A stretch of 64,000 bases of DNA, from NCBI GenBank assembly GCA_963702845.1, contig OY969763.1, positions 1,728,001 to 1,792,000 on the forward strand, read 5' to 3'. The notes beneath the pieces are model-generated. The model was given only the letters and a program-made list of their open reading frames with translations. It searched no databases and had not been told where the DNA came from. The DNA is from an uncultured Verrucomicrobiae bacterium. Lineage in GTDB: Bacteria; Verrucomicrobiota; Verrucomicrobiia; Limisphaerales; Palsa-1400. Each line of letters opens with the position of its first letter. Position 1 is the stretch's first letter. The position numbers and the translations under genes were made by a program. Positions 1-18,535 of this stretch are shown one piece after another.

Positions 1-209
1 ACCAGGTAATGAATCAGAAAGCAAGTTGCTGACAAAATAATCACAATCAAGCCGTAACCAAGTGAACCGAGCATGGTGCGAAATGCAACAAATCCTGCCG
101 TTTCGCTGTCAGCGTGAGGCGAGAAGTCAAAAAACGCGCGAAAGCGAGTGATTGCATGAGTGATAATCACCGCAGACAAAACCAACAGACTGAAAGCTAA
201 AGTTTTCAT
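1..209 (-). CDS. cassette-borne membrane protein, runs off the window edge
   Basis: Not in the ORF track. ATG at 209, open frame MKTLAFSLLVLSAVIITHAITRF...LGYGLIVIILSATCFLIHYL to base 1. GTTAGGC core (228-222, minus) lies 12 nt upstream of the ATG. Confidence 0.65.
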   Translation of the reverse strand, partial: MKTLAFSLLVLSAVIITHAITRFRAFFDFSPHADSETAGFVAFRTMLGSLGYGLIVIILSATCFLIHYL

Positions 210-230
210 GCGCTCGGTGCAGCCTAACTA

Positions 231-521
231 TGATTATGCGACTGGGTGTCGCGGTGATTTTGATATACGAACGGTTGGTTCATATTGGTTGAGCAGACTA
301 TTGTTCTGCTGCCGCTGCGAATCAAGCGCAACAAAACGGATCTCTTCGCCGACGTGATCGACCGCCTGCCGCAACTGGGCGCGCGGGCCGCCTACGCCAA
401 ACAGGCCATCCAAAACAAACTCATGAAACACAAACATTACATCCGCGAGCACGGCGACGACATGCCGGAGATCCGCGATTGGAAGTGGAGCGCGTAGGGA
501 AAGTGCGAAGCAGCGTCTAAC
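231..521. repeat. spacer repeat copy 1 (attI-like end + phosphoketolase 3' remnant)
   Basis: Near-identical to 889-1134 and 3185-3408; begins TGATTATGCGAC(T/G)GGGTGTCGCGG. Confidence 0.95.
345..497 (+). pseudogene. xfp: C-terminal fragment of xylulose-5-P/fructose-6-P phosphoketolase
   Basis: DVIDRLPQLGARAAYAKQAIQNKLMKHKHYIREHGDDMPEIRDWKW matches the characteristic XFP C-terminus; the rest of the gene is absent. Confidence 0.85.
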
Positions 522-606
522 GATCCAAGCTTAGCGACCCGGCCCACGGGACGCGTGGATGGCAACCGGAGCGCACCGGACGGGTTCGCTGCGTGCATGG
601 TTAGGC
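515..606 (-). other. attC integron cassette recombination site
   Basis: Minus strand GCCTAAC (contains the stop of ORF 601-867) ... GCAGCGAACCCG / CGGGTCGCTAAGC inner arms ... GTTAGAC; 92-bp imperfect palindrome. Confidence 0.85.
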
Positions 607-867
607 CGCGTCCTCTTCAAGCTCCTGAATAAATCTCCGCATTACCTGCACGCCACCGTCGCCACAGTAATTGCCCGGTTGTTCAGGCGGAAATTCAGCG
701 TCGAGCAAGTCACACCGCTCGCGGATTGCTTCCAAGCGCGGGTCATCGAAAGTGTCATGAACAAAACTATCCCACTCCCACGGGGCTCCTGTGCCGTCCA
801 AGAATCGCACCAAAACGCCGCGAACATCTTTGGCTGTCTTCTTCCGGCGATGACCGAATAGTTTCAT
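601..867 (-). CDS. cassette-borne hypothetical protein (88 aa)
   Basis: GCTAGGC core variant 12 nt upstream of ATG; stop TAA inside the attC R'' box. Confidence 0.75.
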   Translation of the reverse strand: MKLFGHRRKKTAKDVRGVLVRFLDGTGAPWEWDSFVHDTFDDPRLEAIRERCDLLDAEFPPEQPGNYCGDGGVQVMRRFIQELEEDAA

Positions 868-888
868 GGCGTGTGCACGGCCTAGCTT

Positions 889-1134
889 TGATTATGCGAC
901 GGGGTGTCGCGGTCATTTTGAAATACGAACGGTTGGTTCATATTGGTTGAGGAGACTATTGTTCTGCTGCCGCTGCGAATCAAGCGCAACTGGGCGCGCG
1001 GGCCGCCTACGCCAAACAGGCCATCCAAAACAAACTCACGGAACACAAACATTACATCCGCGAGCACGGCGACGACATGCCGGAGATCCGTGATTGGAAA
1101 TGGAGCGCGTAGGGAAAGTGCGAAGCAGTCTAAC
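889..1134. repeat. spacer repeat copy 2 (43-bp internal deletion relative to copy 1)
   Basis: Direct sequence identity; ends GTCTAAC at 1128-1134. Confidence 0.95.
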
Positions 1135-1196
1135 GCGGCGTCGTCCCACCGTCAGATGTCATGAAGGGTTGAGTCGCAGCCCCACACGGGGTCACG

Positions 1197-2348
1197 ATGT
1201 TTTTGAAAATGAAAACATATTTACTCAAACCCCACATGACAGTCCCAACCCTAACCAGCGTGCCTGCCGCGGGCAAGCTGGCAAACGTGCCGCCGCGCCA
1301 GCCTTTGCCACGTCCTGTGCTGCTTGCCGGCAAACCGGCTCTCAAGCTTGGCCTGGACGTGCATCTGGAGTTCATCATGGCGGTAGCCCAACGTGATCAC
1401 GCTTCACCCCAAGCGCCACGCAAATTCAGCCGTGAGCAACTCATCGCCCAGGTTCAGAAGTGGACCAGCGAAGGCCTGCAAGTTTTCTGCGTGCAGGAAA
1501 GCTGTGGGTTCGGCTTCGTGCTCCATCGCGAACTGGTCGCCGCCGGTGCGCAAAGTTTTTTGATCACGCCGATTGCCCTCAACGGCCAGCGCAAGACCGA
1601 CAAGCTGGACGCGCGCGCTCTTTGCCTGCGCCTCTCTCGCTGGGTTGATGGCAACATCAACGAACTTGCACCCATCCGCATTCCTTCGGACAAAGAGCAG
1701 CGCCAGCGCGAAGGCACGCGACGAAGACAGTTCCTCAACAAAGCCATTCGCATGCTCGCCAATCGCGGTCACGGCCAAGCCGCCGAATACAGCCACGTCA
1801 AACTGCCCCATCGCTGGTGGGGAGCGCGCAACTGGAAAAAACTTTCCACCCTCGATCCGTGGCTGCTCAGTGTTCTCGAAAAGCTCCGCGAGGTCCTCGT
1901 CGCCATGGAGACACAACGGCAGGAACTGGAAGAGGAACTGATTGCGCGGGTCAAAGAACAACCACGGCCCAAGGGCCTTGGCGAGATCACTCTTGTGACA
2001 CTGGAAGGCGAAGTGTGCGACTGGCAGCGCTTCCACAATCGCAAACAGATTGGCAGCTACACCGGATGTTGCCCGGGCGAACACAGTTCAGGAGGCAAAC
2101 GGCGCGTCGGCAGCATCGATCGCATGGGCAACGGACGAGTCAGAGCGATCCTGGTGGAAGCGGTCTGGCGTTTTCTGATGTGGCAACCGGGGTGGAAGGC
2201 CGCACTTAAAATGAAAACCAAACTTGCCGCCGGCACGGCCATGAAGAAGAAAACTGTCATTGCCCTTGCCCGGCAACTGGCCGTGGACCTCTGGCGCTGG
2301 CGAACCGGCCGTTGCACCATGGCAGACCTCGGCTGGGTCGGCGTGTGA
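1197..2348 (+). CDS. IS110-family transposase/recombinase
   Basis: LGLDVH, QESCG, KTDKLDA (DEDD RuvC-like domain) and C-terminal SSGGKRRVGSIDRMGNGRVRAILVEA. Confidence 0.92.
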   Translation: MFLKMKTYLLKPHMTVPTLTSVPAAGKLANVPPRQPLPRPVLLAGKPALKLGLDVHLEFIMAVAQRDHASPQAPRKFSREQLIAQVQKWTSEGLQVFCVQESCGFGFVLHRELVAAGAQSFLITPIALNGQRKTDKLDARALCLRLSRWVDGNINELAPIRIPSDKEQRQREGTRRRQFLNKAIRMLANRGHGQAAEYSHVKLPHRWWGARNWKKLSTLDPWLLSVLEKLREVLVAMETQRQELEEELIARVKEQPRPKGLGEITLVTLEGEVCDWQRFHNRKQIGSYTGCCPGEHSSGGKRRVGSIDRMGNGRVRAILVEAVWRFLMWQPGWKAALKMKTKLAAGTAMKKKTVIALARQLAVDLWRWRTGRCTMADLGWVGV

Positions 2349-2800
2349 ACCACATTTAATTTTTTCGTGAGTAGAACCTCCAGAGTTAAGAGCGTGAAAC
2401 AATTTGCGATCGGGCGAGTCCAGTCCGTAGCTTCAGCTGGTGAACCTTGCGTTCATCCGTCCGTTAGAAGGGGCGGACTCCCCGGTCGCCGCAGTCAGGC
2501 AAGTAAGACACAGTGGGCGTTGAGTCTTATCTCAACTGTCCGGATAGGAGCTGGTGCGGGACAAACTCCCGACACACAAAACGCGGCGACACCGATGCAG
2601 CAAACTTCACGCAACCTGCTTTGAGAGAAATAAGAAAGGAACTTTGAAGAGGAACAGATAAGCGGAGACTCGAGAAGAACAACAGGTGCGGATTGAACCA
2701 ATGTCCAACCGCCTGCCGCGCGCGACTGCGCTTCGTTCCACTGCGCTCCGCGCGATCAACCCCAAAAAAACTATCATCGACGCACACTACGTATTGACAA
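2349..2800 (+). ncRNA. putative seekRNA/bridge-RNA-encoding non-coding region of the IS
   Basis: Long region with no credible ORF downstream of an IS1111-type transposase, the position where this family encodes its guide RNA. RNA limits cannot be determined here. Confidence 0.5.
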
Positions 2801-2826
2801 ACCTCATAGGCGCTGGAGCGCTCTGG

Positions 2827-3165
2827 TTAGTTTTCATCATCTGGATACTGCTTTTGCAAAAAGCAGCAGGTCAGTTGAGCAAGTACAACAGTAATACCTG
2901 CATATACCCAGCCAAATATCACCAGAGCAAAAACCGCCGGGCCTTCGGGGACCCATGACCAAACCTCGCGGGCCAGGTTGCGACTGAATGCAGCGCAAAT
3001 AAGGGGGATGCCGAGAGACCAGAGAGCAAATGTCACAATCAGAAGACCCCAACACAGAAAAAAGGCCCACTTTACAGAACCGCCACGAACGATACGCCGG
3101 AACGGGATTATGCCAGCGATGATGGCTGGTGCGTAAGCGAAAATGATCTGAGCAACAGTCTTCAT
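2827..3165 (-). CDS. cassette-borne membrane protein (112 aa)
   Basis: About three hydrophobic helices; GTTGTCG site 6 nt upstream of ATG; stop TAA in the AACTAAC box of the IS-interrupted attC. Confidence 0.75.
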   Translation of the reverse strand: MKTVAQIIFAYAPAIIAGIIPFRRIVRGGSVKWAFFLCWGLLIVTFALWSLGIPLICAAFSRNLAREVWSWVPEGPAVFALVIFGWVYAGITVVLAQLTCCFLQKQYPDDEN

Positions 3166-3184
3166 CAGCTACGACAACTAATAA

Positions 3185-3408
3185 TGATTATGCGACGGGG
3201 TGTCGCGGTCATTTTGATATACGAACGGTTGGTTCATATTGGTTGAGGAGACTATTGTTCTGCTGCCGCTGCGAATCAAGCGCAACTGGGCGCGCGGGCC
3301 GCCTACGCCAAACAGGCCATCCAAAACAAACTCATGGAACACAAACATTACATCCGCGAGCACGGCGACGACATGCCGGAGATCCGCGATTGGAAGTGGA
3401 GTGCATAG
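3185..3408. repeat. spacer repeat copy 3
   Basis: Same sequence and same 43-bp deletion as copy 2; diverges after the xfp stop codon. Confidence 0.95.
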
Positions 3409-3620
3409 CGCAGGTTTGTATGCGCGGGCATCATCGAGAGCAGAGGCAGGTGACGGGAACCAACGGCCAAAACTGGTTAGCGGAACAGGTACCGACAGAG
3501 GTTGATTACCCATCGGTTTCTTGGACCCGGATGACGTTCAAGACGCCACGGGTCGAAGGCACGCTCGATATTGTTTCAGCGAGAGCTCACGTGTTGATTC
3601 ATTAGCGATGCAGAATCAAA

Positions 3621-3782
3621 GTTCAACGACCTCAGTCGCGGGCGGAAAATGTGGCGGGTTCAAAAAAGCACGGGTGGGCATTCCGGAATCGGTATCCGGA
3701 GCTTGGGCGCGACGTGTCCTTCCTTCGTTCGTTTGTACAGATCCCTCCGTTCAATTGCACAGCGGCTCCGTACCTGTTGTAC
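3621..3782 (-). other. degenerate attC-like site
   Basis: Minus strand GTACAAC 25 nt after the stop of ORF 3808-4095 and a perfect GTTGAAC core at 3627-3621; inner arms poorly paired. Confidence 0.3.
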
Positions 3783-3807
3783 GGCGGCTCTGTAAGATAT
3801 CCCTACC

Positions 3808-4095
3808 TTATGTTCTCTTAAGGAATGAAACCTGATTCGCCTTCGCGATGTCGCCGGTTCGGAGTCGTGTAATCAACTTCGTCATTTCTGAATCTTGAAG
3901 CTCGCGGTATCCGGGGTCCTTATCTCTGATCTCCTCGTCGGCAATGTAATGATGCAAGTCGGCAAACAGATCCTTAAGTTCAGGCATCTTTAACGCCGCG
4001 AGATTATGGATCTCATCGCAAGCATCCTGACCTCCAATCTCGCCTTTCTGTAACCGGGATAGGAAGAGGCAAAGTTGTTCTATCTCGTGATTCAT
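3808..4095 (-). CDS. hypothetical protein (95 aa), probable cassette gene
   Basis: Same orientation and size class as other cassette ORFs; GTTGGCG about 25 nt upstream of the ATG. Confidence 0.65.
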   Translation of the reverse strand: MNHEIEQLCLFLSRLQKGEIGGQDACDEIHNLAALKMPELKDLFADLHHYIADEEIRDKDPGYRELQDSEMTKLITRLRTGDIAKANQVSFLKRT

Positions 4096-4248
4096 CGTTT
4101 ATACCCAGCAATTAATCTGCGCCAACAGTTCGCATATTTTTAATCGGCGAACAAGGGTTTTAGCGCAGGTTTGGTGGCACTTGCTGAAGATGGTTGCTAA
4201 CTCCTTCGTCGCGCCTTAGGCAAAGTGAATCTGCGATTGAGGCGGGTT

Positions 4249-4315
4249 ACCCAGGGTAGAGCCCCGCATCCCTCCTCAACACCTGGGCTGGATGGTTCAA
4301 CCCGCTTTGGGGTTG
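4249..4315. repeat. degenerate REP-like double hairpin
   Basis: CCCAGG...CCTGGG followed by CAACCC-GCTTTG-GGGTTG. Confidence 0.45.
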
Positions 4316-4452
4316 TCTGAAACCCTGTCAAAACTTTTTTTCGCCAAAAATTTTCGCGTTGGTTCGCGAAGAGTGTACGGAGATTCGCGTTGGTTCGTGT
4401 CGTCTAGTGGCCTTCAAAAGCTTTCTGAAAAACGTGTGCTACAAATGCGCAC

Positions 4453-6069
4453 GTGCCGGTTAACTCTACACACATCAAATATGACGCAAGCGTATCCGCA
4501 TGGATTCGGGCGCGCGATATTTTGGCTGGTGAGGATGCCGTCAAAGCTGCGGGCGAACGTTATCTGCCGAAGTTGGATTCGCAATCGGATGACGAATTCA
4601 AAGCGTATCGCGATCGCGCTTCGTTCTTCAATGCGACGGGCCGCACGCTCGATGGTTACAGCGGGTTAATTTTTCGGCGCGCGCCTTTTGTCAAAATTCC
4701 TGAAGGTCCTTCCGGACGGGCACCATCCGGAGGGGCTCCATCTGCGCTCGCTTCCGCGCTCGGGCAGTTCGTTAACGACTGCGATATGCTGGGCACGTCG
4801 CTGACTGGCTACGCAAAGGATTTGGTCACTGAGGTTATCGGCGTAGGCCGAGCCGGGACGTTGGTTGATTGGGAAGGTGATTTTGAAAACCGCGCCTATG
4901 TCTCACTGTATCAGGCTGAGCAAATCATCAACTGGCGAGTGGAACGTGTAAATGGTCGCAATTTGCCAACGTTGATCGTGTTGTCGGAAGTGTTAGCACA
5001 CGGCCACATTGCAGCCGGCGGCGTTGGCACAGATGAATTTGCTCCTGAGGTTGTGGAGCAGATTCGTGTGCTCAAGTTGGTTGGTAGCAGCGCCACGGGC
5101 CAATCAGAAAACACGGACTCACACGGACGAGCACAGACGAACACGAACAAAAAGAGTGGTAAGCGAGCGATGGCTTATCAGGTTGAGATCTGGCAGGCGT
5201 TGGCAGGTAGCCAGCAGGGGCAGAAGAAAAGTGGCAAGGCGGAATGGACTTTGATTGAGACGCGCACGCCGTTGCGCCTTGGTAAACCGCTGCCGCTGAT
5301 CCCGTTTGTTTTTCATGGACCGCGCAATTCTTTGCCGGCTGTCGATAAGTTGCCGCTGACGGATTTGATCGCGGTGAATCTGGATCACTACCGGCTCAAT
5401 GCCGATTACAAGCACGGCATGCATTTTACCGCATTGCCGACGGCGTGGGTGAGTGGTTTCGATAAAAGTGAGCCGCTGCGCATCGGTTCAAGCACTGCCT
5501 GGCATTCGGAAGCGCCGGGGGCAACGGCTGGCTTCCTGGAATTTACGGGCCAAGGGCTCACCACTTTCGAGCGCGCGATGGATCGTGATGAAAAGCTTTT
5601 GGCGGTGCTTGGTTCGCGGTTGCTGGAGTCGCAGAAGCGCGTTGGTGAAACGGCGCAGGCAATCGAGCTGCGGCAGAGCGGCGAGAACAGCGTGTTGGCG
5701 AATGTGGCGACGAGTTTGAGCGAGTCGCTGACGCAGGTTTTGCGCTGGGTTTATTGGTGGAATTCCACCGAAGAAACTCCCGAGGCGCTGACTGACAATG
5801 TTGTTGTGATGTCGCTGAACACGGATTTCACGACGGCCGGGATGGATAGTAATGAGCTGCGCGAAATTGTCGCGGCTTGGCAATCAGGCGCAATCAGCCA
5901 GGACACGATGCTGGAGCTTTTCCGGCGTGGAGAAATTTTGCCGGATGGGCGCTCGAATGAAGACGAGGTGGCTTTAATTGGGGCGGCCGAAGTTAACCAC
6001 CAAGACACCAAGGCATCAAATAGCGGTGGGAGTGAGTCTCTCAGGCCGAATGTTGGCGTCGCTGGGTGA
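4453..6069 (+). CDS. phage portal protein (DUF4055-type)
   Basis: GEDAVKAAGERYLP, YRDRASFFNATGRTL, GRAGTLVD, IINWR, IPFVF, NLDHYRLNADY, WQSGAISQDT motifs; position upstream of scaffold and capsid genes. Confidence 0.88.
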   Translation: MPVNSTHIKYDASVSAWIRARDILAGEDAVKAAGERYLPKLDSQSDDEFKAYRDRASFFNATGRTLDGYSGLIFRRAPFVKIPEGPSGRAPSGGAPSALASALGQFVNDCDMLGTSLTGYAKDLVTEVIGVGRAGTLVDWEGDFENRAYVSLYQAEQIINWRVERVNGRNLPTLIVLSEVLAHGHIAAGGVGTDEFAPEVVEQIRVLKLVGSSATGQSENTDSHGRAQTNTNKKSGKRAMAYQVEIWQALAGSQQGQKKSGKAEWTLIETRTPLRLGKPLPLIPFVFHGPRNSLPAVDKLPLTDLIAVNLDHYRLNADYKHGMHFTALPTAWVSGFDKSEPLRIGSSTAWHSEAPGATAGFLEFTGQGLTTFERAMDRDEKLLAVLGSRLLESQKRVGETAQAIELRQSGENSVLANVATSLSESLTQVLRWVYWWNSTEETPEALTDNVVVMSLNTDFTTAGMDSNELREIVAAWQSGAISQDTMLELFRRGEILPDGRSNEDEVALIGAAEVNHQDTKASNSGGSESLRPNVGVAG

Positions 6070-6132
6070 GTGAGTGGGTCGATTTCTGATTTCCTGCTTC
6101 GTGCAGTGAATGTGATGTGCCAAGCTTCTGGT

Positions 6133-7062
6133 GTGAGCAGACGGTTGAAAATGTTGGTGGTGGCCGGGTGTGCGTTGGTTGCAGTCGTTGCCGTTTGCTT
6201 TTTCTGCTTTCGCGAAAATGAGCCTTCCTACAATGGGCGGACGTTGAGTGAGTGGTTGGAAGAAATCACGGTTTCGCGTATCGCAGTGACAGAGCAACTC
6301 GAGGAGCAAAAGGCAATCGAAGCCGTGCGCGCCATTGGAACGAACGCTTTGCCATTCTTCGTGAAGTGGAGCGGCTATGGCTCTACTCCTTTGGAAGCGG
6401 ATCTGGTCAATGTTGGCCGCTGCATACCCGGAATACGCAATACTTCTGTTTTCCGCAGAATTGCCTTCCGTCACGTGAAAAAACGCTCTGCAGCTATTAA
6501 GGGATTCAGGATTTTGAAAGACAAAGCCGCGCTCGTGGTGCCGGAACTTATAACTCGATTGAATCGCACAAAAAACTATGAAAAGGCATTGGGCGTTGCG
6601 TCTATGCTCCAATGTGTCGGCGAACCCGCAGTACCCGCTCTTATTAAAGCAGCAGAATCTGGGAGTCTCGAGCACCGCAGTGCAGCAATGTACGCATTGT
6701 CGGGCATGGGAACGTTTGCCTGTGATGCTGTTCCAGCACTTTTGGAAATTGGGCGCAACCTTTCCGATCCAGCACATAACGAGGCTGCCGCGACCGTTGG
6801 GAAAATGGCAGGGTGCTCGGACCAGGCAATTTCCACCTTTTCCAACATGCTGGCGTCCGCCACACCTGGAGACCGAATTTGCGCGCTTATCGGCCTCACA
6901 ACTTTTGTGAGGTGGCAAGGAGCAACTTCTATCCAGCAAACTGTGCCGGCAATTAAACTCGCACTTGAAGACTCCGATATAGGTGTGCGGTATTGGGCAA
7001 AAGAAGCTCTGACGGTGATCGCGCCCCAAGCCCTGACCAATAGCGCATCGAGCAATAACTAG
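6133..7062 (+). CDS. membrane-anchored HEAT-repeat protein
   Basis: N-terminal TM, EPSYNGRTLSEWL motif, AVRAIGTNALP and AVPALL helical repeats. Start chosen by analogy with the paralogue (ORF track starts at 6070). Confidence 0.75.
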   Translation: MSRRLKMLVVAGCALVAVVAVCFFCFRENEPSYNGRTLSEWLEEITVSRIAVTEQLEEQKAIEAVRAIGTNALPFFVKWSGYGSTPLEADLVNVGRCIPGIRNTSVFRRIAFRHVKKRSAAIKGFRILKDKAALVVPELITRLNRTKNYEKALGVASMLQCVGEPAVPALIKAAESGSLEHRSAAMYALSGMGTFACDAVPALLEIGRNLSDPAHNEAAATVGKMAGCSDQAISTFSNMLASATPGDRICALIGLTTFVRWQGATSIQQTVPAIKLALEDSDIGVRYWAKEALTVIAPQALTNSASSNN

Positions 7063-7068
7063 GAACAA

Positions 7069-7992
7069 ATGACTGGCCGCCGAAAAAAATTTCTCCTGGC
7101 CGCGTGCGGTGTGGTTGCAGTTGTGGGTGTTTGCTTCTTCTGTCTTCGTGACAATGAGCCTTCTTATAATGGGCGGACGTTGAGTGAGTGGTTGGATGAA
7201 TGCGAGGAGCTTGGATTCCAAGAAATCGCCGACATGCCAAAGTTGAAAGATGCTGTGACTGCTGTTCGCGCGATCGGCACAAATGCTCTGCCCCGGCTGC
7301 TCGCTTGGGAGGCAAAGGACGAATCTCCGAGTCAGAAGTGGCTCGGTCGGCATATTCCCAGCCCGTTGAAGCAACCCTGGTTGGAAAAGCTCATTAGCGG
7401 CGATGCCGCCCACAAGAATATGATCGCCGAAATCGGATTTCAAATTCTTGGAACGAACGCTCTTCCCGCTTTGCCGCAATTGGAGGAAAGATTCACTAAA
7501 GGTACGAATGGGACCCAAGTTTTGGGGAGTGCGTATGCGATGGCTTACATGGGACGTAATGCGTTCGACTTCTGTCTGAGGACAGCGGAATCCGGTGGAA
7601 CGAACTTGCACGTTCGAGCAGCGATTGTGGCCATCGGTCAAATGAATTACCTGGGGACGAACGCGATGCGGGCCATGCCAGTGCTCCTTAACGCAATGAA
7701 AAATACGAATGACCTTAGAGTCGCGCGCGCTGCAACGCTCTCTGCATCGGGACTCGGTTTGATGCCAGAACGAGTACTTCCCGCAGCGACAAACCTTTTC
7801 CAATTAGGAGATGCTTCCACAAAGGCCAATGTTCTCCTCGGCATAAGGTTCCTGAGTAAGCACGTTGCAATCCCAAGGGATTTTCTTCAGCAAGCGCTCA
7901 CCGATCCTGATCAAGCGGTCCGTGGTTTCGCGACCAACGCTACACGCGAAGCCGCGCCTGAGATGCTTACCAACAGCGTCCCGGCTCGCTAG
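7069..7992 (+). CDS. membrane-anchored HEAT-repeat protein (paralogue)
   Basis: Same N-terminal motif; GTNALPALP repeats; ALTDPDQAVR. Confidence 0.78.
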   Translation: MTGRRKKFLLAACGVVAVVGVCFFCLRDNEPSYNGRTLSEWLDECEELGFQEIADMPKLKDAVTAVRAIGTNALPRLLAWEAKDESPSQKWLGRHIPSPLKQPWLEKLISGDAAHKNMIAEIGFQILGTNALPALPQLEERFTKGTNGTQVLGSAYAMAYMGRNAFDFCLRTAESGGTNLHVRAAIVAIGQMNYLGTNAMRAMPVLLNAMKNTNDLRVARAATLSASGLGLMPERVLPAATNLFQLGDASTKANVLLGIRFLSKHVAIPRDFLQQALTDPDQAVRGFATNATREAAPEMLTNSVPAR

Positions 7993-8181
7993 GTTCGTTC
8001 CATTCCGGGATTTTCATATTGGCTTCGCAAGAGCGGACTAGCGTCAACAACATTTTGCGAATTTATTGTGCGCGTCTGTGCGCGGCAAAGCGCGTACGTG
8101 CGCGCAGGTGCGTGACGAAATTTGGCTGAATCAGCCCTCCCGTAAAATTTCTAAAAACCCGTGCTAAAACTGCATCCAGTT

Positions 8182-8988
8182 ATGGCACTTAAATTCAAAT
8201 TTAATTCGAAGAGCGAAATTCCGGCTGAGTTGGCGGCGCATTATGTCGAGCGCGATGGCGCTTGGGTTTTGGAAGCCGACGGCTCTGCTGACGTGTTGGC
8301 ACACGGCCACGATGCCCTCAAAGCCCGGCTCGATGAGTTTCGCCAGAGCAATTTGGCGTTACTGAAACAGATCGAAGAGCAAAAGACCCGATTCGACGGG
8401 ATCGATCCGGATGAGGTGCGAAAGCTCACTGACGAAAAGCGCCAACTCGAAGAAGCGCAACAGTTGAAAGCAGGCGAGTTGGAAAAGGTTGTCGAGAATC
8501 GCGTCAAAGGCATGAAAGCGGATTGGGACAAGCAACTCACCACTCTCACTTCGGAGCGCGATTCGCTCAACGCGCGCCTGACTGCGATTCAGATTGATCA
8601 GGGTGTGGTTGGCGCTGCGACGAAACGCGGGCTTCGTCCAACCGCGTTCGCTGATATTACGGCGCGTGCGCGAAATGTTTTCAAGTTGGTGAACGGTGCG
8701 CCACGCGCATTCGAGGCTGATGGCCAGACTGTGCGTTACGGCAAGGATGGCGTAACGCCGATGACTTTAGAGGAGTGGGTGGATTCGCAAGTTTCCGACG
8801 CTCCTCACTTGTTCGAATCCAATGCTGGTGGCGGTGCCGCTGGCGACGCTTCCGGTGGAGGCGCTGGCTCACGACAAGGTCGGTCCGTCAAAAATCCCTT
8901 CCGCAAGGAAAGCTGGAATTTGACGGAGCAAATGAGACTGCAAAAAACTGATCCGCAACTCGCCGCGCGCTTACAGGCGTCGGCGTAA
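8182..8988 (+). CDS. phage capsid scaffolding protein
   Basis: MALKF..EIPAELAAHYVERDGAWVL, coiled coil, APHLFESNAGGGA, KNPFRKESWNLTEQMRL; directly upstream of the capsid gene. Confidence 0.82.
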   Translation: MALKFKFNSKSEIPAELAAHYVERDGAWVLEADGSADVLAHGHDALKARLDEFRQSNLALLKQIEEQKTRFDGIDPDEVRKLTDEKRQLEEAQQLKAGELEKVVENRVKGMKADWDKQLTTLTSERDSLNARLTAIQIDQGVVGAATKRGLRPTAFADITARARNVFKLVNGAPRAFEADGQTVRYGKDGVTPMTLEEWVDSQVSDAPHLFESNAGGGAAGDASGGGAGSRQGRSVKNPFRKESWNLTEQMRLQKTDPQLAARLQASA

Positions 8989-9018
8989 TTACGGGTCACA
9001 ACCGGAGAAATAACGTTT

Positions 9019-10029
9019 ATGGCAAAGACAGCAGTGGCGGACATTATCATCCCCACAGAGTTTGAAAAATATGCGATCGAGCGCACGGCTGAATTGGCGG
9101 CGTTCGGTGAGTGCGGCATTGTCGAGGCATCGCCTGAGTTCGATGCAATCGCGGCCGAAGGTGGACGCGAAGTTAAAATGCCGTTTTGGAAGGACCTTTC
9201 GGCGACGCGTCAGCTTCTGAGCGATTCGGCAACGCTCGCGGTTAATAAAATCGGCACTGATCAAGATGTCGCGCGTATTCACAATGACGCGCAGGTCTGG
9301 TCTGTGAATCACCTGGCGAAAGTCGTTTCGGGTGATGACCCGATGCAGGCGATTGTGGACCTGGTCGCGCAGTATTGGGCGCGCACGGATGAAGGCCTCG
9401 TCGTGTCGTGTCTCAAGGGCATGTTCGCGGCGGGTTCGATGGCGGGCAATTTGCTCGCGATTCATTCGGAGTCGGCGGCTGGCGCTGCTTCGTCGACGAA
9501 GTTGACTGGTGCGACGTTCGTGGATGCTTGCGCGAAGTTGGGTGATCGTGCTGATCGACTCACTGCCGTTGCGATGCACTCGGCAACTGAAGCTGCGTTG
9601 CGCAAGCTCGACTTGATCGACTTCATCCCGGACAGCGAGGGCAAGCCGCTCTTGCGCGTGTTCCAAGGTCGGCGTGTTGTTGTCGATGACAACTTGCCCA
9701 CTCGGGCTGGCACGACTGATGGCACGGTCTACACGACCTACTTGTTTGGCCAGGGCGCGTTTGCGAAAGGCTCGTCGAAACTGGATTCGACGCCGCTGCA
9801 AGGTGGTATCGGCACTGAAGGTGTCGAGATTGCGCGTGCTCCTTTGGATAGCGATACGATTCTGATCAATCGTCGCCGCTATCTCTTGCATCCGCGTGGT
9901 GTGAAGTTCACCAGCGCTTCTGTTGCTGGCGATTCTCCGACCAATGCGGAGTTGGAAACCGGCGCGAACTGGACCCGCGTTTGGGAAAACAAAAACGTCC
10001 GCATCGTCGCGGTGACTCACAACAATTAA
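9019..10029 (+). CDS. major capsid (coat) protein, HK97 fold
   Basis: T.VADIIIP.EF..Y, GGREVKMPFWKDL, SGDDPMQAI, AVAMHS, GRRVVVDDNLP, LLHPRGVKF, SPTNAELETGANWTRV.ENKNVRIV. Confidence 0.9.
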   Translation: MAKTAVADIIIPTEFEKYAIERTAELAAFGECGIVEASPEFDAIAAEGGREVKMPFWKDLSATRQLLSDSATLAVNKIGTDQDVARIHNDAQVWSVNHLAKVVSGDDPMQAIVDLVAQYWARTDEGLVVSCLKGMFAAGSMAGNLLAIHSESAAGAASSTKLTGATFVDACAKLGDRADRLTAVAMHSATEAALRKLDLIDFIPDSEGKPLLRVFQGRRVVVDDNLPTRAGTTDGTVYTTYLFGQGAFAKGSSKLDSTPLQGGIGTEGVEIARAPLDSDTILINRRRYLLHPRGVKFTSASVAGDSPTNAELETGANWTRVWENKNVRIVAVTHNN

Positions 10030-10035
10030 CAAACC

Positions 10036-10079
10036 GGGCGCCGACCCCGCACACCGCACGTGGTGTCGGGGTGGCGCTC
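10036..10079 (+). other. strong intergenic hairpin after the capsid gene
   Basis: GGGCGCC-G-ACCCCG-C-ACACC ... GGTGT-CGGGGT-GGCGCTC; no U-tract. Confidence 0.6.
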
Positions 10080-10101
10080 CTCCACCTTCGAAAGGAAATT
10101 T

Positions 10102-10335
10102 ATGGGTAAAGAGATTCCCAGGAGTTTTGAAAAGATTCGGAGCGGCGAGCAGCTCAACTTGAAAAGCCGCGGCTTTACAAATGTTGCTTCGCTTACGGCG
10201 GCGGGCGTCACTGCTGCAAAGAATGCCGGCGCGTTGATTTACCTCAGCGCGGGCGGCACTGGTTCTGTGGCGTGCCTCGCAATTTCCGACGGCACGAATT
10301 GGAAACAGGTTGCGATTGGAGCGAACGCCATCTGA
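10102..10335 (+). CDS. small virion protein, probable capsid decoration
   Basis: RBS AAGGAA; 77 aa; GALIYLS...LAISDGTNW motif typical of small head-decoration/fibre proteins; follows the MCP gene. Confidence 0.55.
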   Translation: MGKEIPRSFEKIRSGEQLNLKSRGFTNVASLTAAGVTAAKNAGALIYLSAGGTGSVACLAISDGTNWKQVAIGANAI

Positions 10336-10355
10336 GTGTTAGCACACGGCCACCT

Positions 10356-10538
10356 ATGAAAATTGAACAAGGTTTATATCCAATCATCCGGCGTGTTCGA
10401 CGGCCGCTGATTCCTACTGATGCCGGCACGGCTGCTCCTGCGGTCGTGCCGGCGAAAGTCGACGAGCCTTTCGCACCTACGCAACCGCCGAAACCTGAAA
10501 CAAAAGCAGATGCCCCGCCGACGACCTCAGATGATTGA
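10356..10538 (+). CDS. small Pro-rich hypothetical protein (60 aa)
   Basis: MKIEQGLYPIIRRVRRPLIP...; stop overlaps the next start region. Confidence 0.55.
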   Translation: MKIEQGLYPIIRRVRRPLIPTDAGTAAPAVVPAKVDEPFAPTQPPKPETKADAPPTTSDD

Positions 10539-11286
10539 TGCGTCTCCAGTTTCGGCCAAAGCCGCCGTGTGGTTTGCGATGCAGCAGCAGCGTCGGCGTC
10601 GTCGCAATTCTTTGGCGGCGGGCGGACCAGCACTGGCGAATGTTCCGGGTGATTGCGTGTTGCGATTGAAAGCGAGCACGCTGGATTTAGGTGATGATGA
10701 TTCGATTGCCTTTTGGCCTGATCTGAGCGGCAACGCAAATGACGTTTCGCAAATCACGGTTTCGCAACAGCCGACATTTCAGACAGTGACGTTCGCGGGG
10801 AAGACGTTTGCTGTTGCGCGTTTCGATACTGTCGATGATGGGATGGAGACGCCGGTCGTGATTTCTGGTGCGTTTTCGATTTTCACGTTGTGGAGGTTGG
10901 CGGATGCCGATGTGTTTAGCGGCGCGATTCTGTCGTCCGCTTCAGCCGACTGGACCGTGGGCAATATCAATGGGCAGATGCTTTGTTACTTCGAAGGATG
11001 GAGCGCCGCTACAACCGTCAACGATTCGGATTTCTATTTGGTAGAGGCGCGCATCGTTCCTGGGAGCAGTCCGGAAAACATTTATTTGAACGGTGTGCAG
11101 GTTGGGATGAGTGGCGGCGGGTCGGGGGTGCCTTATCAGATAATGTTGGGAGCATCGGGCGGCAACGGTTATCCCGGCAATTGCGATTGTGCGGAGATTC
11201 TTATTTACGATCGCTTTCTCTCGGACGATGAGGCGGCCGGCGTGCGCGCGTATTTCCAGGAGGAATACAACTACTTGAAATTATGA
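10531..11286 (+). CDS. LamG/concanavalin-A-like domain virion protein
   Basis: LRLKASTL...WPDLSGNAND..Q....QPT, RFD.VDD.M, IYLNG, CAEILIYDRFLSD.E...V..Y. Confidence 0.7.
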   Translation: MIDASPVSAKAAVWFAMQQQRRRRRNSLAAGGPALANVPGDCVLRLKASTLDLGDDDSIAFWPDLSGNANDVSQITVSQQPTFQTVTFAGKTFAVARFDTVDDGMETPVVISGAFSIFTLWRLADADVFSGAILSSASADWTVGNINGQMLCYFEGWSAATTVNDSDFYLVEARIVPGSSPENIYLNGVQVGMSGGGSGVPYQIMLGASGGNGYPGNCDCAEILIYDRFLSDDEAAGVRAYFQEEYNYLKL

Positions 11287-11600
11287 GCGTGCGCTATCTC
11301 GTCATTATTCCCGCTGCGGATCAGTCGCAAGCAAATGCTCTGTCGAAATCAGAATTTGATTCCGATGGCGGTGAGAAAACTTTTTCGATTGGTTTGTCAG
11401 TAACGGGCAAGCCGCCGGCAACGCACTATTGGTGCTCGGCTTTGTTTTTTCGAACGGGACCTGAGCGTTTGCTTGCTGCCAAAGCGATTTTTCCTGATGC
11501 CGTTGTTGTGGACTACGACGGCGCAACGGATCCCGGCTTTCCGCAACGCACGATTGCGGGGCTTGGGTTGAAACAGATTGTGACGCTACCGGATAGATAA
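11283..11600 (+). CDS. hypothetical phage-type protein
   Basis: ATGA overlap; FSIGLSVTGKPPATHYWCS. Confidence 0.65.
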   Translation: MSVRYLVIIPAADQSQANALSKSEFDSDGGEKTFSIGLSVTGKPPATHYWCSALFFRTGPERLLAAKAIFPDAVVVDYDGATDPGFPQRTIAGLGLKQIVTLPDR

Positions 11601-11601
11601 T

Positions 11602-12186
11602 ATGGCGCTAGTTCTCGTAAAAGAAGATGGGACCGGTTTGGCGAGCGCGAATTCTTACGCGAGCGCCGCCGACGGCGATGCCTATCACGATGGGCATTTG
11701 TACGCGACGGTCTGGACTGGCGCGACGACGGCGAACAAGGAAAAAGCGCTCGTGTTCGCGACTCGCGTCATTGATTCGCAGTATCGGTTCCATGGTCTTC
11801 GCACCGTTGCCGGGCAAGCTTTGCAATGGCCTCGGTCCGATTGTCCTGATCCTGATGCGACGCCTGATTCCAGTGGCATCGCGGTTTTTGCGAGCGATCA
11901 GATTTCAGTCGCGCTGATCAATGCGACCTGTGAAATGGCGCGCGCGTTGTTAGCTACGGATCGAACGGGCGCTCCGCTTGGCGAGGGAATTGATACGACC
12001 CAGACGTCGGCCTCGAGCGCGAGTAATGACGGAACAACTTCGAGCAGCGTCAGCAATAGTTCGATGACTCGATACAGCAAGGTCGACACGCGACCGATGA
12101 TTTCTCAAGCGGCACAAGCGTTTCTCTCAAAGCTCGGCGATTTGCCTGGTCGAGCGAGCGGTGCGGTGCAGTTGGTCCGAGTTTGA
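11602..12186 (+). CDS. head-tail adaptor (DnaT-like ssDNA-binding phage family)
   Basis: LVKEDGTGLASANSYAS.ADGDAYH, KEKALVFATRVID, QALQWPR, ATCEMA. Confidence 0.82.
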   Translation: MALVLVKEDGTGLASANSYASAADGDAYHDGHLYATVWTGATTANKEKALVFATRVIDSQYRFHGLRTVAGQALQWPRSDCPDPDATPDSSGIAVFASDQISVALINATCEMARALLATDRTGAPLGEGIDTTQTSASSASNDGTTSSSVSNSSMTRYSKVDTRPMISQAAQAFLSKLGDLPGRASGAVQLVRV

Positions 12187-12195
12187 AAGGAGACG

Positions 12196-12522
12196 ATGAC
12201 GAACATGAACGCAACTGAATTTTTGAAAGCGGTGGATCATGCGGCGGCGATGAATGACCGGTGGTTATTTTTGGCGGCGTTTTGCCTGCTGCTGTTGTTG
12301 TGCGGCCTGGTGATTTATTGGCTCGTGCGGCAATTGCAGAGCTTGATTGCGGACCACAAGGAGCTGCGCCATGAGCACCACGCCGCGCTGCAGCAAATCA
12401 TCAACACGCAAAATGAAACGGCGTTGAAACTCGCCGTCTGCCTGGACCGTAATACGGCCGCGTTACAGGAATGCAGTTTCGAACTTCGCAGATTTCAGGG
12501 TGCGAGCCGCACCGGCCATTAA
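12196..12522 (+). CDS. single-TM coiled-coil protein, holin-like
   Basis: RBS AAGGAG; one strong TM (WLFLAAFCLLLLLCGLVIYWLV) followed by coiled coil. Confidence 0.5.
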   Translation: MTNMNATEFLKAVDHAAAMNDRWLFLAAFCLLLLLCGLVIYWLVRQLQSLIADHKELRHEHHAALQQIINTQNETALKLAVCLDRNTAALQECSFELRRFQGASRTGH

Positions 12523-12532
12523 AAAGGAGAGT

Positions 12533-13249
12533 ATGAGAAGATTGATTCTATCGTTCGCCGCACTCGCGCTTGTCGCCTGCGGCACAACTAAACCGCTTAA
12601 GCCCGGTGTGGCGCGCATTCAATCGAACGTCGGGACCAACGGCGTTCGCGAGTTCGTCGCCGATTTGAAGCAGCCGGAAAATCCGGCGCAAAGCGCGACT
12701 CAGAATTTTGAGCGCACAACGGAAACTGAGTTGCCGATCCCGGCGCAGAGCAGGGTGCAGGAAGTATTCATCACGCCGGCAGCGCAGCCTGGTGGTGAGC
12801 CGGTGAAGCAGGAGAAAACAATCGTGCTATCTGCACCGACGGTGCAAAAAACGCGCGTCAGCGAAAAGGCGGGCACGATGATTGGTGCAGCGCAAAAAGA
12901 CACGGCGCGGGAATTCGGCGCAAAGCTCGCCAGTTTGAAAGGTGTTGTTTGGGTTGGGCTCGGTCTGTTTCTGTTCGGACTGGCATCGCTTTTCTATCCA
13001 CCTCTGCGCGCAATTGTCGGCAGCGTCACCACAAGCCTAGCGATGGTCGGCGGGGGAGTCGCTCTAATGATCTTGCCGTCACTGATCGTCGGCAACGAGT
13101 TGCTGATTCTTTCCGCTGTAGCGCTCAGCGTTGGCGGCTGGTTTTTTGCTCATCGTCACGGGCAATTGCGTGGAACAGTCGATGCCCAAAATAAAACGAG
13201 TGTGGCCGGCGTGGCGGAAGCGACCGTTTCGCGGCTGATGGGAAAATAG
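12533..13249 (+). CDS. lipoprotein with C-terminal TM helices
   Basis: RBS AAGGAG; MRRLILSFAALALVA-C lipobox; about three TM segments near the C-terminus. Confidence 0.7.
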   Translation: MRRLILSFAALALVACGTTKPLKPGVARIQSNVGTNGVREFVADLKQPENPAQSATQNFERTTETELPIPAQSRVQEVFITPAAQPGGEPVKQEKTIVLSAPTVQKTRVSEKAGTMIGAAQKDTAREFGAKLASLKGVVWVGLGLFLFGLASLFYPPLRAIVGSVTTSLAMVGGGVALMILPSLIVGNELLILSAVALSVGGWFFAHRHGQLRGTVDAQNKTSVAGVAEATVSRLMGK

Positions 13250-13450
13250 CGACGGAACACCGCTGAAAAAGCCTAACAATTCCTAACGAGAAAATTGCAT
13301 TTCGCTGTTCAAACGTGCATGTCGCCAAAAAGTTCTACGAGAAATTCAGAAACTGAAAACACGCAAAATATGCAATAAAGACGGGCCTAAATGCACGTTC
13401 ACGAAAACTAAGACACAAAATTTCTTCTTCCTAAAAATTACGGTATTGGC

Positions 13451-13473
13451 TTCAACTCCCGCCGCCTCCACCA
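13451..13473 (+). mobile_element. attR-like site: duplicated 3' end of tmRNA (ssrA)
   Basis: TTCAACTCCCGCCGCCTCCACCA = T-loop, acceptor strand and CCA of an Ala-accepting tmRNA. The 5' T-stem is missing and the site follows ~200 bp of AT-rich non-coding DNA. Confidence 0.8.
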
Positions 13474-13579
13474 TTTTCTGCGGTGGCAATTATTGCCGCG
13501 GCGTAGTTCCGCTCCACGGAACGAAGGCGGGCTAAACTTTTGAATTGTCCTGCACATCATGTGCGGCAATCTTCGCCCC

Positions 13580-13775
13580 ATGCTAAAATTCTGGTGCGTC
13601 TACATCCTACAAAGTGTATCGACCCCAGAAACCTACTACACCAGCCTCACCGAAGACCCCCAGTGCCGCTTAGAGACGCACAACCATGCGAACTTTCGTC
13701 GACTTCCGCACACAAACCCTGACGCATAAAAACCGGAATAGCTTTTACTGACCAAGAGAGTGCCCGTGATCTTTC
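13580..13775 (+). pseudogene. GIY-YIG nuclease remnant
   Basis: MLKFWCVYILQS...YYTSLTEDPQCRLETHN, then frameshifted KP*RIKTGIAFTD. Confidence 0.7.
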
Positions 13776-13803
13776 ACCAACATGACCTCAATTGGTCGTG
13801 CAG

Positions 13804-13832
13804 TTGACAACCAGTGGTTTCACACCTACAAC
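13804..13832 (+). promoter_or_regulatory. sigma70-like promoter, probably leaderless transcript
   Basis: TTGACA-17 nt-TACAAC, with ATG 7 nt downstream. Confidence 0.45.
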
Positions 13833-13839
13833 AGTTGCT

Positions 13840-14763
13840 ATGGAACTCAGACCCCGCCTGGCGTTTTCATTTTTGTTGGCAGCACTCGTTGGTTTTTCCT
13901 GCGGCCGGGCGGAGGCGCAACCGAAGAATGTTCCCGACGTAAAACTCGGCCTCGTGTTGGCCAAAACGAACGGCAATCTCGTTATTCAGGCAGTCCTCGG
14001 CCAGGCTGTCTACGACGCGGGTCTTCGGCCGCGACAGATCATTAAACAAATCGACGGACGTTCGACGGACGATTTGAGCGTTGAGCAGGCCGTTGAAGCG
14101 GTGAAAGGGCCGGTTGGCTCTCGATTGACTTTGACGATCGTGAAACCAGGACAATCGAAGCCGGTGGAGATTGAGATAACTCGCGGGCCGTATATCACAT
14201 TGAAAAGTGTAACGGACCGTGTCATCGAAGGGGGCATTGGTGTTATCGGTATCCGGTCATTTGAAATGGATTGCGGATCGAAAGTTGCGACCATTCTCGA
14301 AAGTTTTCGCAACAAGCAATTGAAGGGGCTGGTTCTAGATTTGCGCGATAATGGCGGCGGTTATTTGCAGGGAACGATGGCCGTTGCCAATCTGCTGCTT
14401 GATAAAAAATGCGTGTTATGGATCACGAAACGTAACGGCAGAGAAGAAACCGAACATTCTACACCAGTCCACGGCTGGGACGGGCCCATCGCTGTTCTGG
14501 TTAATGAGGCTACGGCAAGCGGTGCGGAAATTTTGGCTTCAGCTCTTCAGTTGAACGGGCGTGCAAAAGTTGTGGGTCAAAGGACATCGGGCCATGCTTC
14601 GATATCCACGAGATCGGCCACCGGTTCTGTCGTCAAGATTGGTGAATATTACAATTCGCGACGGCAAGCTATAGATGGCCACGGTGTTACACCAGATATT
14701 GCCTTGGATGTGAATCTTTCGGAGGACGTGACTTTGTCTCGCGCTACAACAGTTCTGAAGTGA
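13840..14763 (+). CDS. S41 family C-terminal processing peptidase with PDZ domain
   Basis: LVLDLRDNGGG, TASGAEILA, GVTPDI; signal peptide. Confidence 0.88.
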   Translation: MELRPRLAFSFLLAALVGFSCGRAEAQPKNVPDVKLGLVLAKTNGNLVIQAVLGQAVYDAGLRPRQIIKQIDGRSTDDLSVEQAVEAVKGPVGSRLTLTIVKPGQSKPVEIEITRGPYITLKSVTDRVIEGGIGVIGIRSFEMDCGSKVATILESFRNKQLKGLVLDLRDNGGGYLQGTMAVANLLLDKKCVLWITKRNGREETEHSTPVHGWDGPIAVLVNEATASGAEILASALQLNGRAKVVGQRTSGHASISTRSATGSVVKIGEYYNSRRQAIDGHGVTPDIALDVNLSEDVTLSRATTVLK

Positions 14764-14785
14764 TTCTCGGCTTCCCCAAGTTGAG

Positions 14786-16303: not shown

Positions 16304-16391
16304 GTCACCGAGCCTAACACGGATCGCGCCCGCATCCAGCGAAACGACGGAATCTCTGGACGCAGTATTCTGGTCGTTGGGCGACTGATTC

Positions 16392-18356: not shown

Positions 18357-18535
18357 AATGCTTGATTGAGCAAGGTGTAAGCGCCGCTCAGTGGCTCAAA
18401 GAGAGTCGTAATGGGGCAGTCACTCCAAGGCAAAACAAGCAGGCACGGAAGCCAATCAGATGTCAAAGAGTGCTTCGAAAATTTGCTCACCCTCCGTTGC
18501 TTCACGATGAACAACGCAAGTTTAGCTCTTACAAT

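What the first reader, a model, noticed from the sequence alone, without database searches (positions are those of the whole stretch)
4453..13473. Head-only phage module: portal, scaffold, capsid, adaptor but no tail, ending cleanly at a tmRNA att site
Seen: an uninterrupted plus-strand run of portal, scaffold, major capsid, small decoration-like proteins, LamG protein, DnaT-like head-tail adaptor, holin-like protein and lipoprotein. Several genes have good RBSs or overlapping stop/start codons, and the run ends ~200 bp before the att fragment. In tailed phages, closure, terminator, tail tube and tape-measure genes normally follow the adaptor; none is here and I see no remnants. The terminase slot upstream of the portal holds the cassette array instead. 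Inference: this is a capsid-forming satellite that borrows tails, a tailless or membrane-associated particle, or a domesticated capsid. It uses a DUF4055-portal/scaffold head rather than the protease-type head described for cf-PICIs.
Basis: partly seen in the sequence, partly recalled or inferred. Interest (0 to 1): 0.85.

Follow-up and report, generated by a model that had tools for sequence, protein, structure and literature searches.

The report
Tail-less virus-head island, stopper lost
This is the head-building end of a 55-kb mobile island that can copy and package its own DNA into a virus-like head but has no tail and no tail-docking stopper; four relatives sit in the same genome, so it looks like a maintained way of spreading rather than a broken phage.

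Summary
The head-only module is real, but two HEAT-repeat cargo genes interrupt it, and the terminase pair is not missing: it lies 15 kb upstream. The module ends a 55.4-kb element bounded by a 24-nt tmRNA repeat, with integrase, primase, helicase, TerS and TerL, and no tail or endolysin gene. Four more att-bounded copies (29-49 kb) in this genome are also tail-less; dN/dS is mostly 0.03-0.33. No tailed module was seen in 53 judgeable loci of 80 from other genomes, or in 37 of 79 from metagenomes; tailed siphoviruses appear at 58-72% capsid identity. A minority keeps the stopper; its C-terminal repeats are predicted to carry Mtd-type fibre trimers (0.83 against 0.00 for controls). Most, this copy included, lost it, and their adaptor hairpin turned polar and sometimes longer. 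Best reading: a self-packaging, helper-dependent element whose particles stay tail-less and attach by their own adhesins (0.45); borrowing a helper's stopper and tail is the close rival (0.33). It is not a cf-PICI. No particle or excision evidence was obtained. The scan had found this family on other genomes.

The parts
1..4452 (.). Right end of the 15.4-kb cargo stretch between TerL and portal (short ORFs on both strands, repeats, IS110 at 1197-2348). Integrase, replication genes, TerS and TerL lie left of the window (G000:C1:1686153-1717052).
4453..6069 (+). Portal protein, DUF4055 / phrog_145, 538 aa
   Evidence: dN/dS 0.16 and 0.33 against copies A and D
6070..7992 (+). Two inserted HEAT-repeat cargo genes with an N-terminal hydrophobic helix (6070-7062, 7069-7992); not structural, absent here in copies A and D
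8161..8988 (+). Head scaffolding protein (phrog_206); likely start 8182
9019..10029 (+). HK97-fold major capsid protein, phrog_247 / Gp13-like, 43% identical to the SPP1 coat protein
   Evidence: dN/dS 0.03-0.07
10102..10335 (+). Conserved 75-77-aa protein (cluster c5, 52 loci); probable capsid decoration (inferred from position; no family hit)
10356..10538 (+). Small protein with a conserved PIIRRxRRPL start and a Pro-rich tail (cluster c4, 62 loci); function unknown; weakest constraint (dN/dS 0.63-0.69)
10531..11286 (+). Candidate virion adhesin: Trp/Arg-rich N-terminus then a LamG-like domain; the same slot holds LamG, Fn3, LamG-metallophosphatase, SdiA-like or Ig/RCC1 domains in relatives
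11283..11600 (+). 105-aa ORF that travels with the LamG gene; function unknown; dN/dS 0.03-0.04
11602..12186 (+). Head-tail adaptor Ad1 (phrog_477, DnaT_2); last structural gene; no closure gene follows
11989..12075 (+). Adaptor beta-hairpin (residues 130-158): 28 residues, 57% Ser/Thr, against 12-13 hydrophobic-patterned residues in stopper-bearing relatives
12196..12522 (+). One-helix membrane protein, holin-like by position only
12500..13249 (+). Lipoprotein (invariant Cys in 24 aligned homologues) with two or three C-terminal hydrophobic helices; u-spanin-like layout, role untested; likely start 12542
13451..13474 (+). att direct repeat: 24 of 24 nt identical to the tmRNA 3' end at G000:C1:1686067-1686090; element length 55.4 kb

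Best explanation
The window holds the right end of an integrative element descended from an SPP1-like siphovirus that kept integration, replication, packaging and head genes, lost the tail, and carries cargo in the freed space. Shown: gene content, att repeats, five copies at five tRNA/tmRNA sites, purifying selection, tail-less order across the family (about 0.85 that it is a maintained mobile element). Inferred: it excises, replicates with its own primase and helicase, and fills a phage-sized head with its own terminase. The portal is capped by the adaptor ring alone; in this copy the lengthened Ser/Thr hairpins would form a short plug or nozzle. The particle stays tail-less and attaches through its own variable adhesin (LamG here; Mtd-type fibres hung on the stopper in a sister subgroup). 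With no endolysin and no recognisable ejection proteins, it relies on an incoming tailed phage for release and probably for entry, by riding along as MiniFlayer does.
For: Five att-bounded copies of 29.1-55.4 kb, each with integrase, primase, TerS, TerL, portal, scaffold, capsid and Ad1; no tail or endolysin hit among 48 + 111 ORFs scanned. Copies C and E end at Ad1 itself. Four att-bounded elements of other genomes (38.6-51.2 kb) gave no tail or lysis hit in 87 ORFs. Tailed modules in 0 of 53 judgeable genome loci and 0 of 37 judgeable metagenome loci. dN/dS 0.03-0.33 for nine of ten genes. Sizes stop at 55 kb; cultured phages with the most similar capsids are 38-64 kb. Adaptor hairpin aliphatic fraction 0.33-0.46 with a stopper gene (13 rows) against 0.04-0.25 without (52 rows); 0.38-0.46 (6 rows) against 0.04-0.31 (33 rows) in a second set; 15 of 51 stopper-less hairpins are lengthened to 19-31 residues. 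In SPP1 this hairpin barrel is the stopper's platform (PMC9701221, passages). Stoppers with C-terminal DWG repeats are followed by an Mtd_N gene in 9 of 10 loci (the tenth contig ends), those without in 0 of 5; the predicted complex scored 0.83, best control 0.00 (mark reached by 116 of 157 solved and 2 of 215 mismatched pairs; runs agree in at least 95% of contacts; partner pLDDT at least 78).
Against: No particle, excision or expression data. The hairpin change is close to a single event on the Ad1 tree (stopper-less adaptors plus two with short stoppers form one clade, SH-aLRT 93), so the counts are not independent. The SPP1 adaptor-stopper contacts are polar (Thr77), so a polar rim need not exclude a stopper. 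The 12-residue hairpin of 31 stopper-less adaptors is itself conserved (N, Q and G in 29 of 31) and may bind a helper protein. MulchRoom lists only an adaptor yet carries helper-length tails (PMC10690885, passages). The fibre complex concerns relatives, not this copy, and neck fibres are compatible with a docked tail. The adhesin slot also exists in tailed relatives. The target of the adhesin is unknown.
Confidence: 0.45

Rival explanations
1. Tail borrowing: filled heads take a helper phage's tail, with their own stopper in the minority subgroup (as cf-PICIs do) and with the helper's stopper in the majority (as MulchRoom and Ando probably do).
For: Precedent in cf-PICIs (10.1101/2025.02.11.637232, passages), MulchRoom and Ando (PMC13587820, passages). 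Ad1 is kept under selection (dN/dS 0.07-0.14). 12 of 53 judgeable genome loci keep a true stopper. Tailed siphoviruses with the same head genes exist (L114, L123, L217). Conserved short hairpin motif.
Against: This copy has no stopper gene and a 28-residue, low-complexity hairpin where a stopper would bind; hairpin length varies from 12 to 31. No resident tailed prophage found in this genome with five tail or neck families whose controls rang (one contig, 89.8% complete).
Confidence: 0.33
2. Autonomous tail-less virus: the adaptor nozzle and adhesins deliver DNA without any helper (for example through pili or vesicle uptake), and the membrane protein plus lipoprotein release particles.
For: Complete replication and packaging sets; own adhesins; conserved holin-like and u-spanin-like pair; five copies and no resident helper; lengthened adaptor barrels form the short DNA conduit in phi29 and P68.
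Against: No endolysin and no conserved large protein that could be an ejection or pilot protein. The lipoprotein is seen in only 32 of 46 stopper-less and 5 of 12 stopper-bearing loci, and not in copies C and E.
Confidence: 0.12
3. Decayed prophages that lost their tail by deletion.
For: Tailed relatives at 58-72% capsid identity; the careful capsid tree does not resolve the tail-less group as one clade (p-AU 0.07); damaged copies exist (G416, L388, G402).
Against: Same end point in dozens of elements whose capsids differ by up to 38%, no tail remnants, intact ORFs and att sites, purifying selection between tail-less copies, changed adaptor hairpin, new stopper-fibre link.
Confidence: 0.06
4. 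Host-domesticated capsid (gene-transfer-agent-like or decoy).
For: Lone terminase genes and a second head-only cluster in the same genome.
Against: Each copy has its own integrase, primase and att repeats, at different sites, with different cargo; patchy distribution: in a 401-genome phylum sample only 8 had any capsid match, and none but this genome above 39%.
Confidence: 0.04

Closest known systems
Capsid-forming PICIs (cf-PICIs; PMC10085698 and 10.1101/2025.02.11.637232, passages read)
   Same: Integrated at att sites; integrase, primase, TerS, TerL, portal, capsid, adaptor; no tail module; defence-type cargo.
   Different: 29-55 kb against 10-18 kb (median 14); SPP1-like scaffold head instead of a protease head; no HNH; no connector/stopper in this copy; carries adhesin genes and a holin-like/lipoprotein pair.
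Streptomyces satellite phages MulchRoom, MiniFlayer (PMC10690885, passages) and Ando (PMC13587820, abstract and passages)
   Same: TerS, TerL, portal, scaffold, capsid and one head-to-tail adaptor, no tail; MulchRoom and Ando integrate; MiniFlayer has its own fibre and attaches to its helper's neck.
   Different: Those lack primases and make 42-47 nm heads (Ando 13 kb); this family replicates itself and is phage-sized. No homology to them was tested.
SPP1-like siphoviruses with phrog_145 portal, phrog_247 capsid, Ad1 and Hc1 (uncultured L114, L123, L217)
   Same: Homologous portal, scaffold, capsid, Ad1, and Hc1 in the subgroup that keeps it; same order.
   Different: They continue with Neck1, terminator, tube, chaperones and tape measure; L217's TerL is 33% identical, against 63-79% among tail-less members.
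Bordetella phage BPP-1 Mtd (PF18454; PDB 1yu0)
   Same: N-terminal trimer domain of the fibres in the stopper-bearing subgroup (E 3.7e-11).
   Different: Here it is predicted to dock on repeats at the C-terminus of a head-closure protein; I found no solved complex of that kind by sequence.

Membership tests
cf-PICI | Integrase, regulation and replication modules; integrated at an att site | tested here: met
cf-PICI | Capsid, portal, TerS, TerL, adaptor | tested here: met
cf-PICI | Head-tail connector (stopper) gene | tested here: not met
   No ORF between Ad1 and the membrane protein gene; no PF05521 match in the genome; a true Hc1 stopper occurs only in a subgroup of relatives
cf-PICI | Prohead protease and HNH endonuclease | tested here: not met
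   Scaffold-type head; no protease or HNH hit among the element's scanned ORFs
cf-PICI | Size about 10-18 kb | tested here: not met
   55.4 kb; nine intact att-bounded members 29.1-55.4 kb
cf-PICI | No tail module | tested here: met
cf-PICI | No lytic genes | tested here: inconclusive
   No endolysin, but a holin-like and a u-spanin-like gene without family hits
cf-PICI | Infective only after docking a helper tail | not testable with these tools
   needs particles
MulchRoom/MiniFlayer-type satellite phages | Terminases, portal, scaffold, capsid, adaptor, no tail | tested here: met
MulchRoom/MiniFlayer-type satellite phages | No primase; replication depends on the helper | tested here: not met
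   Prim-pol/D5 primase-helicase and Pif1-like helicase present
MulchRoom/MiniFlayer-type satellite phages | Attachment to a helper virion or use of its tail | not testable with these tools
   needs electron microscopy
Complete siphovirus prophage | Closure, Neck1, terminator, tube, tape measure, baseplate, endolysin | tested here: not met
u-spanin (window lipoprotein) | Lipoprotein signal plus C-terminal transmembrane helix | tested here: met
   Invariant Cys and C-terminal hydrophobic helices; definition from PMC6139136 passages
u-spanin (window lipoprotein) | Lies in a holin-endolysin cassette and complements Rz-Rz1 | tested here: inconclusive
   No endolysin here; homologues in other phages sit among fibre genes; complementation not testable

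The most novel reading that the evidence does not exclude
A widespread lineage of HK97-fold, portal-bearing bacterial viruses of Verrucomicrobiota has given up both tail and stopper and infects without any helper, using a lengthened adaptor barrel as a stub nozzle and swappable head adhesins; the same chassis has done so with a second, unrelated head module (L189).
Probability: 0.12. Interest if true: 0.93.

Novelty: new variant of a known kind. Interest (0 to 1): 0.72.

Why it matters
Known head-making satellites are small (10-18 kb). This family is phage-sized, replicates itself, occurs in up to five att-bounded copies in one genome and moves defence-type and cassette cargo. It shows graded states of neck reduction (tail; stopper turned fibre hub; no stopper), which makes a basic question testable: how a DNA-filled head is sealed and delivers DNA without stopper or tail. 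Such elements are also scored as incomplete prophages by standard tools (CheckV 11-62% for the IMG/VR records, some of them true fragments), so similar families may be overlooked.

Tried and rejected
Rfam scan of window 1-20000: no match at E 0.1. Public sequencing runs: none was listed, so no excision or expression test. phrog_161 search of this genome: nothing rang, controls included, so uninformative. phrog_28 tape-measure search of 26 viral records: 1 hit, but it missed L215, which has a tape measure by another profile, so it is weak. A regular expression for the adhesin's Trp/Arg-rich start did not discriminate (44 of 51 stopper-less loci, but 430 of 1380 shuffles and many off-frame hits); the motif rests on reading N-termini. 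Monophyly of tail-less capsids: quick tree SH-aLRT 86 for 91 rows, unresolved in the careful 39-row tree; not claimed. A lysis role for the lipoprotein from gene neighbours in other phages: not supported. ESM Atlas gave only unnamed viral clusters for the lipoprotein and c5 (nearest named PF26696, 32% of members, a lead only). The Ad1 profile had no PDB sequence match; fold Z-scores were middling (best 6.7, rmsd 4.4, 91 aligned), though the top 15 rows were nearly all phage neck proteins. No IMG/VR record of the tail-less family checked had terminal repeats. The two HK97-type portal loci of this genome are not tailed helpers. The Phanie paper is not held; it is known to me only from citations.
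Full report
OBSERVATION. The genes are at the stated coordinates. Portal, scaffold, major capsid and head-tail adaptor Ad1 have strong PHROG hits; the LamG hit is weak; the small ORFs, the membrane protein and the lipoprotein have no family. The run ends about 200 bp before a 24-nt perfect copy of the tmRNA 3' end.

THE WHOLE ELEMENT. From the tmRNA to the repeat it spans 55.4 kb: tyrosine integrase, cargo, excisionase-like HTH, RusA-like resolvase, exonuclease, Pif1-like helicase, prim-pol/D5 primase, TerS, TerL, cargo, head module. Of 48 ORFs left of the window none had a tail or lysis hit. Genes were called with my own codon-trained script, so starts are approximate.

FIVE COPIES. The head module occurs five times in the genome, each in an element with its own att repeat: A 48.7 kb (tRNA-Thr, 21 nt), B this one, C 32.5 kb (tRNA-Thr, 50 nt), D 46.9 kb (tRNA-Asp, 29 nt), E 29.1 kb (tRNA-Met, 55 nt). 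Capsid identity to B is 98-99% for A and D and 70% for C and E. I scanned 111 of the 147 listed ORFs of at least 100 aa around A, C, D and E (left out: head genes already identified, an IS110 copy, ORFs outside the att sites; three ORFs spanning locus borders were not listed): no tail hit, no endolysin, one weak Rz-like hit in D's cargo. C and E end at Ad1. Pairwise dN/dS of B against A and D is 0.03-0.33 for nine genes and 0.63-0.69 for c4. No tape-measure, tube, sheath, head-closure or baseplate family matched anywhere in the genome (one contig, 89.8% complete), so no resident helper was found.

THE FAMILY. A capsid search gave 80 genome loci at 62-89% identity, mostly labelled Verrucomicrobiota. 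The order is portal, scaffold, capsid, c5, c4, variable adhesin slot, Ad1, then optionally stopper, a signal-peptide protein, membrane protein, lipoprotein, HTH, integrase. Of the 80, 41 have Ad1 and no stopper, 12 have a stopper and no tail, none is tailed, 24 are too short to judge and 3 had no full capsid call. Of 79 metagenome loci (79-97%), 32 lack a stopper, 5 have one, none is tailed, 42 are too short; some are duplicates, and kin are not independent. A PHROG scan of 150 of 159 non-redundant plus-strand ORFs downstream of the capsid found Neck1, terminator, tube or chaperones only in the tailed records L114, L123 and L124. Tail-class hits inside the tail-less group were fibre or Ig-type (Mtd_N, collar, and an 823-aa Ig/RCC1 protein of L061 that also hits a 'tail tubular' profile over its Ig part). 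Four elements of other genomes could be bounded by att repeats (38.6, 39.1, 48.8, 51.2 kb) and gave no tail or lysis hit in 87 ORFs. In 36 host genomes, full-length tube and tape-measure hits lay on other contigs than the capsid; one weak partial hit (G427, E 1.9e-4) lay 44 kb away on the same contig.

TAILED RELATIVES. L114 (67% capsid identity to the window), L123 (58%) and L217 (72% to its nearest family member) have full siphovirus tails. The quick tree put 91 rows without tail genes in one clade (SH-aLRT 86); the careful tree left a tailed clade (98/99) in a polytomy with tail-less groups and did not reject or show monophyly (p-AU 0.07). TerL separates them better: 63-79% among tail-less IMG/VR records, 33% for L217; other records at 48-60% carry different head modules, two with tail or neck hits. 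The number of tail losses is open.

THE NECK. The gene after Ad1 in the minority is a true stopper: its tailed homologues hit Hc1, its model matches the phage Chi neck chain 8vhx_F at Z 11.0, rmsd 3.1, 104 aligned, and its profile hits a solved 'stopper protein'. Ten such stoppers carry a C-terminal extension with DWG repeats; nine are followed by an Mtd_N fibre gene and the tenth contig ends; none of five without the extension, and no stopper-less locus, has one. A predicted complex of the extension with an Mtd_N trimer scored 0.83 against 0.00 for the best of three controls (mark reached by 116 of 157 solved complexes and 2 of 215 mismatches; counts hold only roughly for this job; runs agree in at least 95% of contacts; partner pLDDT at least 78); the closest contacts pair separate repeats with separate subunits. 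It supports binding and does not show it; the PDB sequence search found Mtd chains only. In the window's Ad1 model (pLDDT 90) residues 130-158 form a beta-hairpin; in SPP1 the equivalent hairpins build the barrel on whose rim the stopper sits. Where a stopper gene is present the hairpin is 12-13 residues with an aliphatic fraction of 0.33-0.46 (13 rows); where absent, 0.04-0.25 (52 rows matched by my pattern; one locus counts twice); the second set agrees. Fifteen of 51 stopper-less hairpins are 19-31 residues and Ser/Thr-rich, this copy's among them. Against reading too much: this is about one change on the Ad1 tree, SPP1's own contacts are polar, and the short version is conserved.

HOW IT LIKELY WORKS. 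Shown: content, boundaries, selection, family-wide lack of tails, change of the adaptor. Inferred: excision, replication, packaging into a phage-sized head (best cultured capsid matches are 38-64 kb phages including SPP1; that SPP1 is T=7 and headful is recalled), sealing by the adaptor, attachment through own adhesins, and dependence on an outside phage for lysis and entry. I put 0.45 on particles that stay tail-less and ride with a helper, 0.33 on borrowing stopper and tail, 0.12 on helper-free infection, 0.06 on decay and 0.04 on domestication.

KNOWN SYSTEMS. It works like a capsid-forming satellite but fails three cf-PICI criteria (size, protease/HNH, connector; definitions from passages) and the no-primase trait of MulchRoom and MiniFlayer. 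Papers seen: PMC12772148 and PMC12822802 (first part of the text); PMC10690885, 10.1101/2025.02.11.637232, PMC6139136, PMC9701221, PMC10085698, PMC13587820 (passages); all others as search listings only; no supplements were read, and large satellite catalogues in supplements could hold members. Nine full-text searches, of which some aimed at this family, listed no description of it; subscription journals are not covered.

VERDICT. A real, maintained, phage-sized head-making element of an apparently undescribed family; new variant of a known kind; interest 0.72.

Noticed in passing
G000:C1:5239999-5249251 (L171) and L189, L458: A second, unrelated head-only cluster (protease-like ORF, phrog_10 capsid, phrog_442 adaptor, phrog_12 portal, TerL with an internal TAG). 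L189 carries a related head (38% capsid identity) inside the same chassis as the window's family, followed directly by membrane protein, lipoprotein, HTH and integrase. Tailed relatives of that head exist (L377, L460).
   Followed up: partly
G000:C1:2302723-2305865 (L169); other TerL hits at 2183247, 2758980, 4753914, 5838799: A TerL plus portal pair without capsid, and several lone terminase genes among host genes.
   Followed up: no
L213 (G445, 23.6 kb): Divergent stopper-plus-Mtd element (capsid 51%) in which the head module is followed by replication genes, TerS and TerL, as in a tandem or circularly permuted copy; no integrase seen; classed as linear.
   Followed up: partly
L192-L205: The window's lipoprotein has about 40% identical homologues in other phage contigs (up to 74 kb), placed among collagen and fibre genes with no endolysin recognised among the neighbours scanned.
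   Followed up: partly
window 6070-7992; G000 132-133 kb, 2306 kb, 2594 kb, 2845-2847 kb, 4314 kb, 4827 kb: A family of membrane-anchored HEAT-repeat genes scattered through the genome, several inserted into these elements.
   Followed up: no
G000 element A (111-123 kb) and element C (2222952-2234334): Defence-like cargo: a Dnd-like cluster in A (cysteine desulfurase-like, PAPS reductase, SbcC-like; the label is my inference) and a helicase-methyltransferase cluster in C that recurs in G422.
   Followed up: no
L084, L318, L320, L322: Two head modules arranged tail-to-tail on opposite strands within about 10 kb.
   Followed up: no
window 13559-13729: Short GIY-YIG fragment just outside the att repeat.
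   Followed up: no
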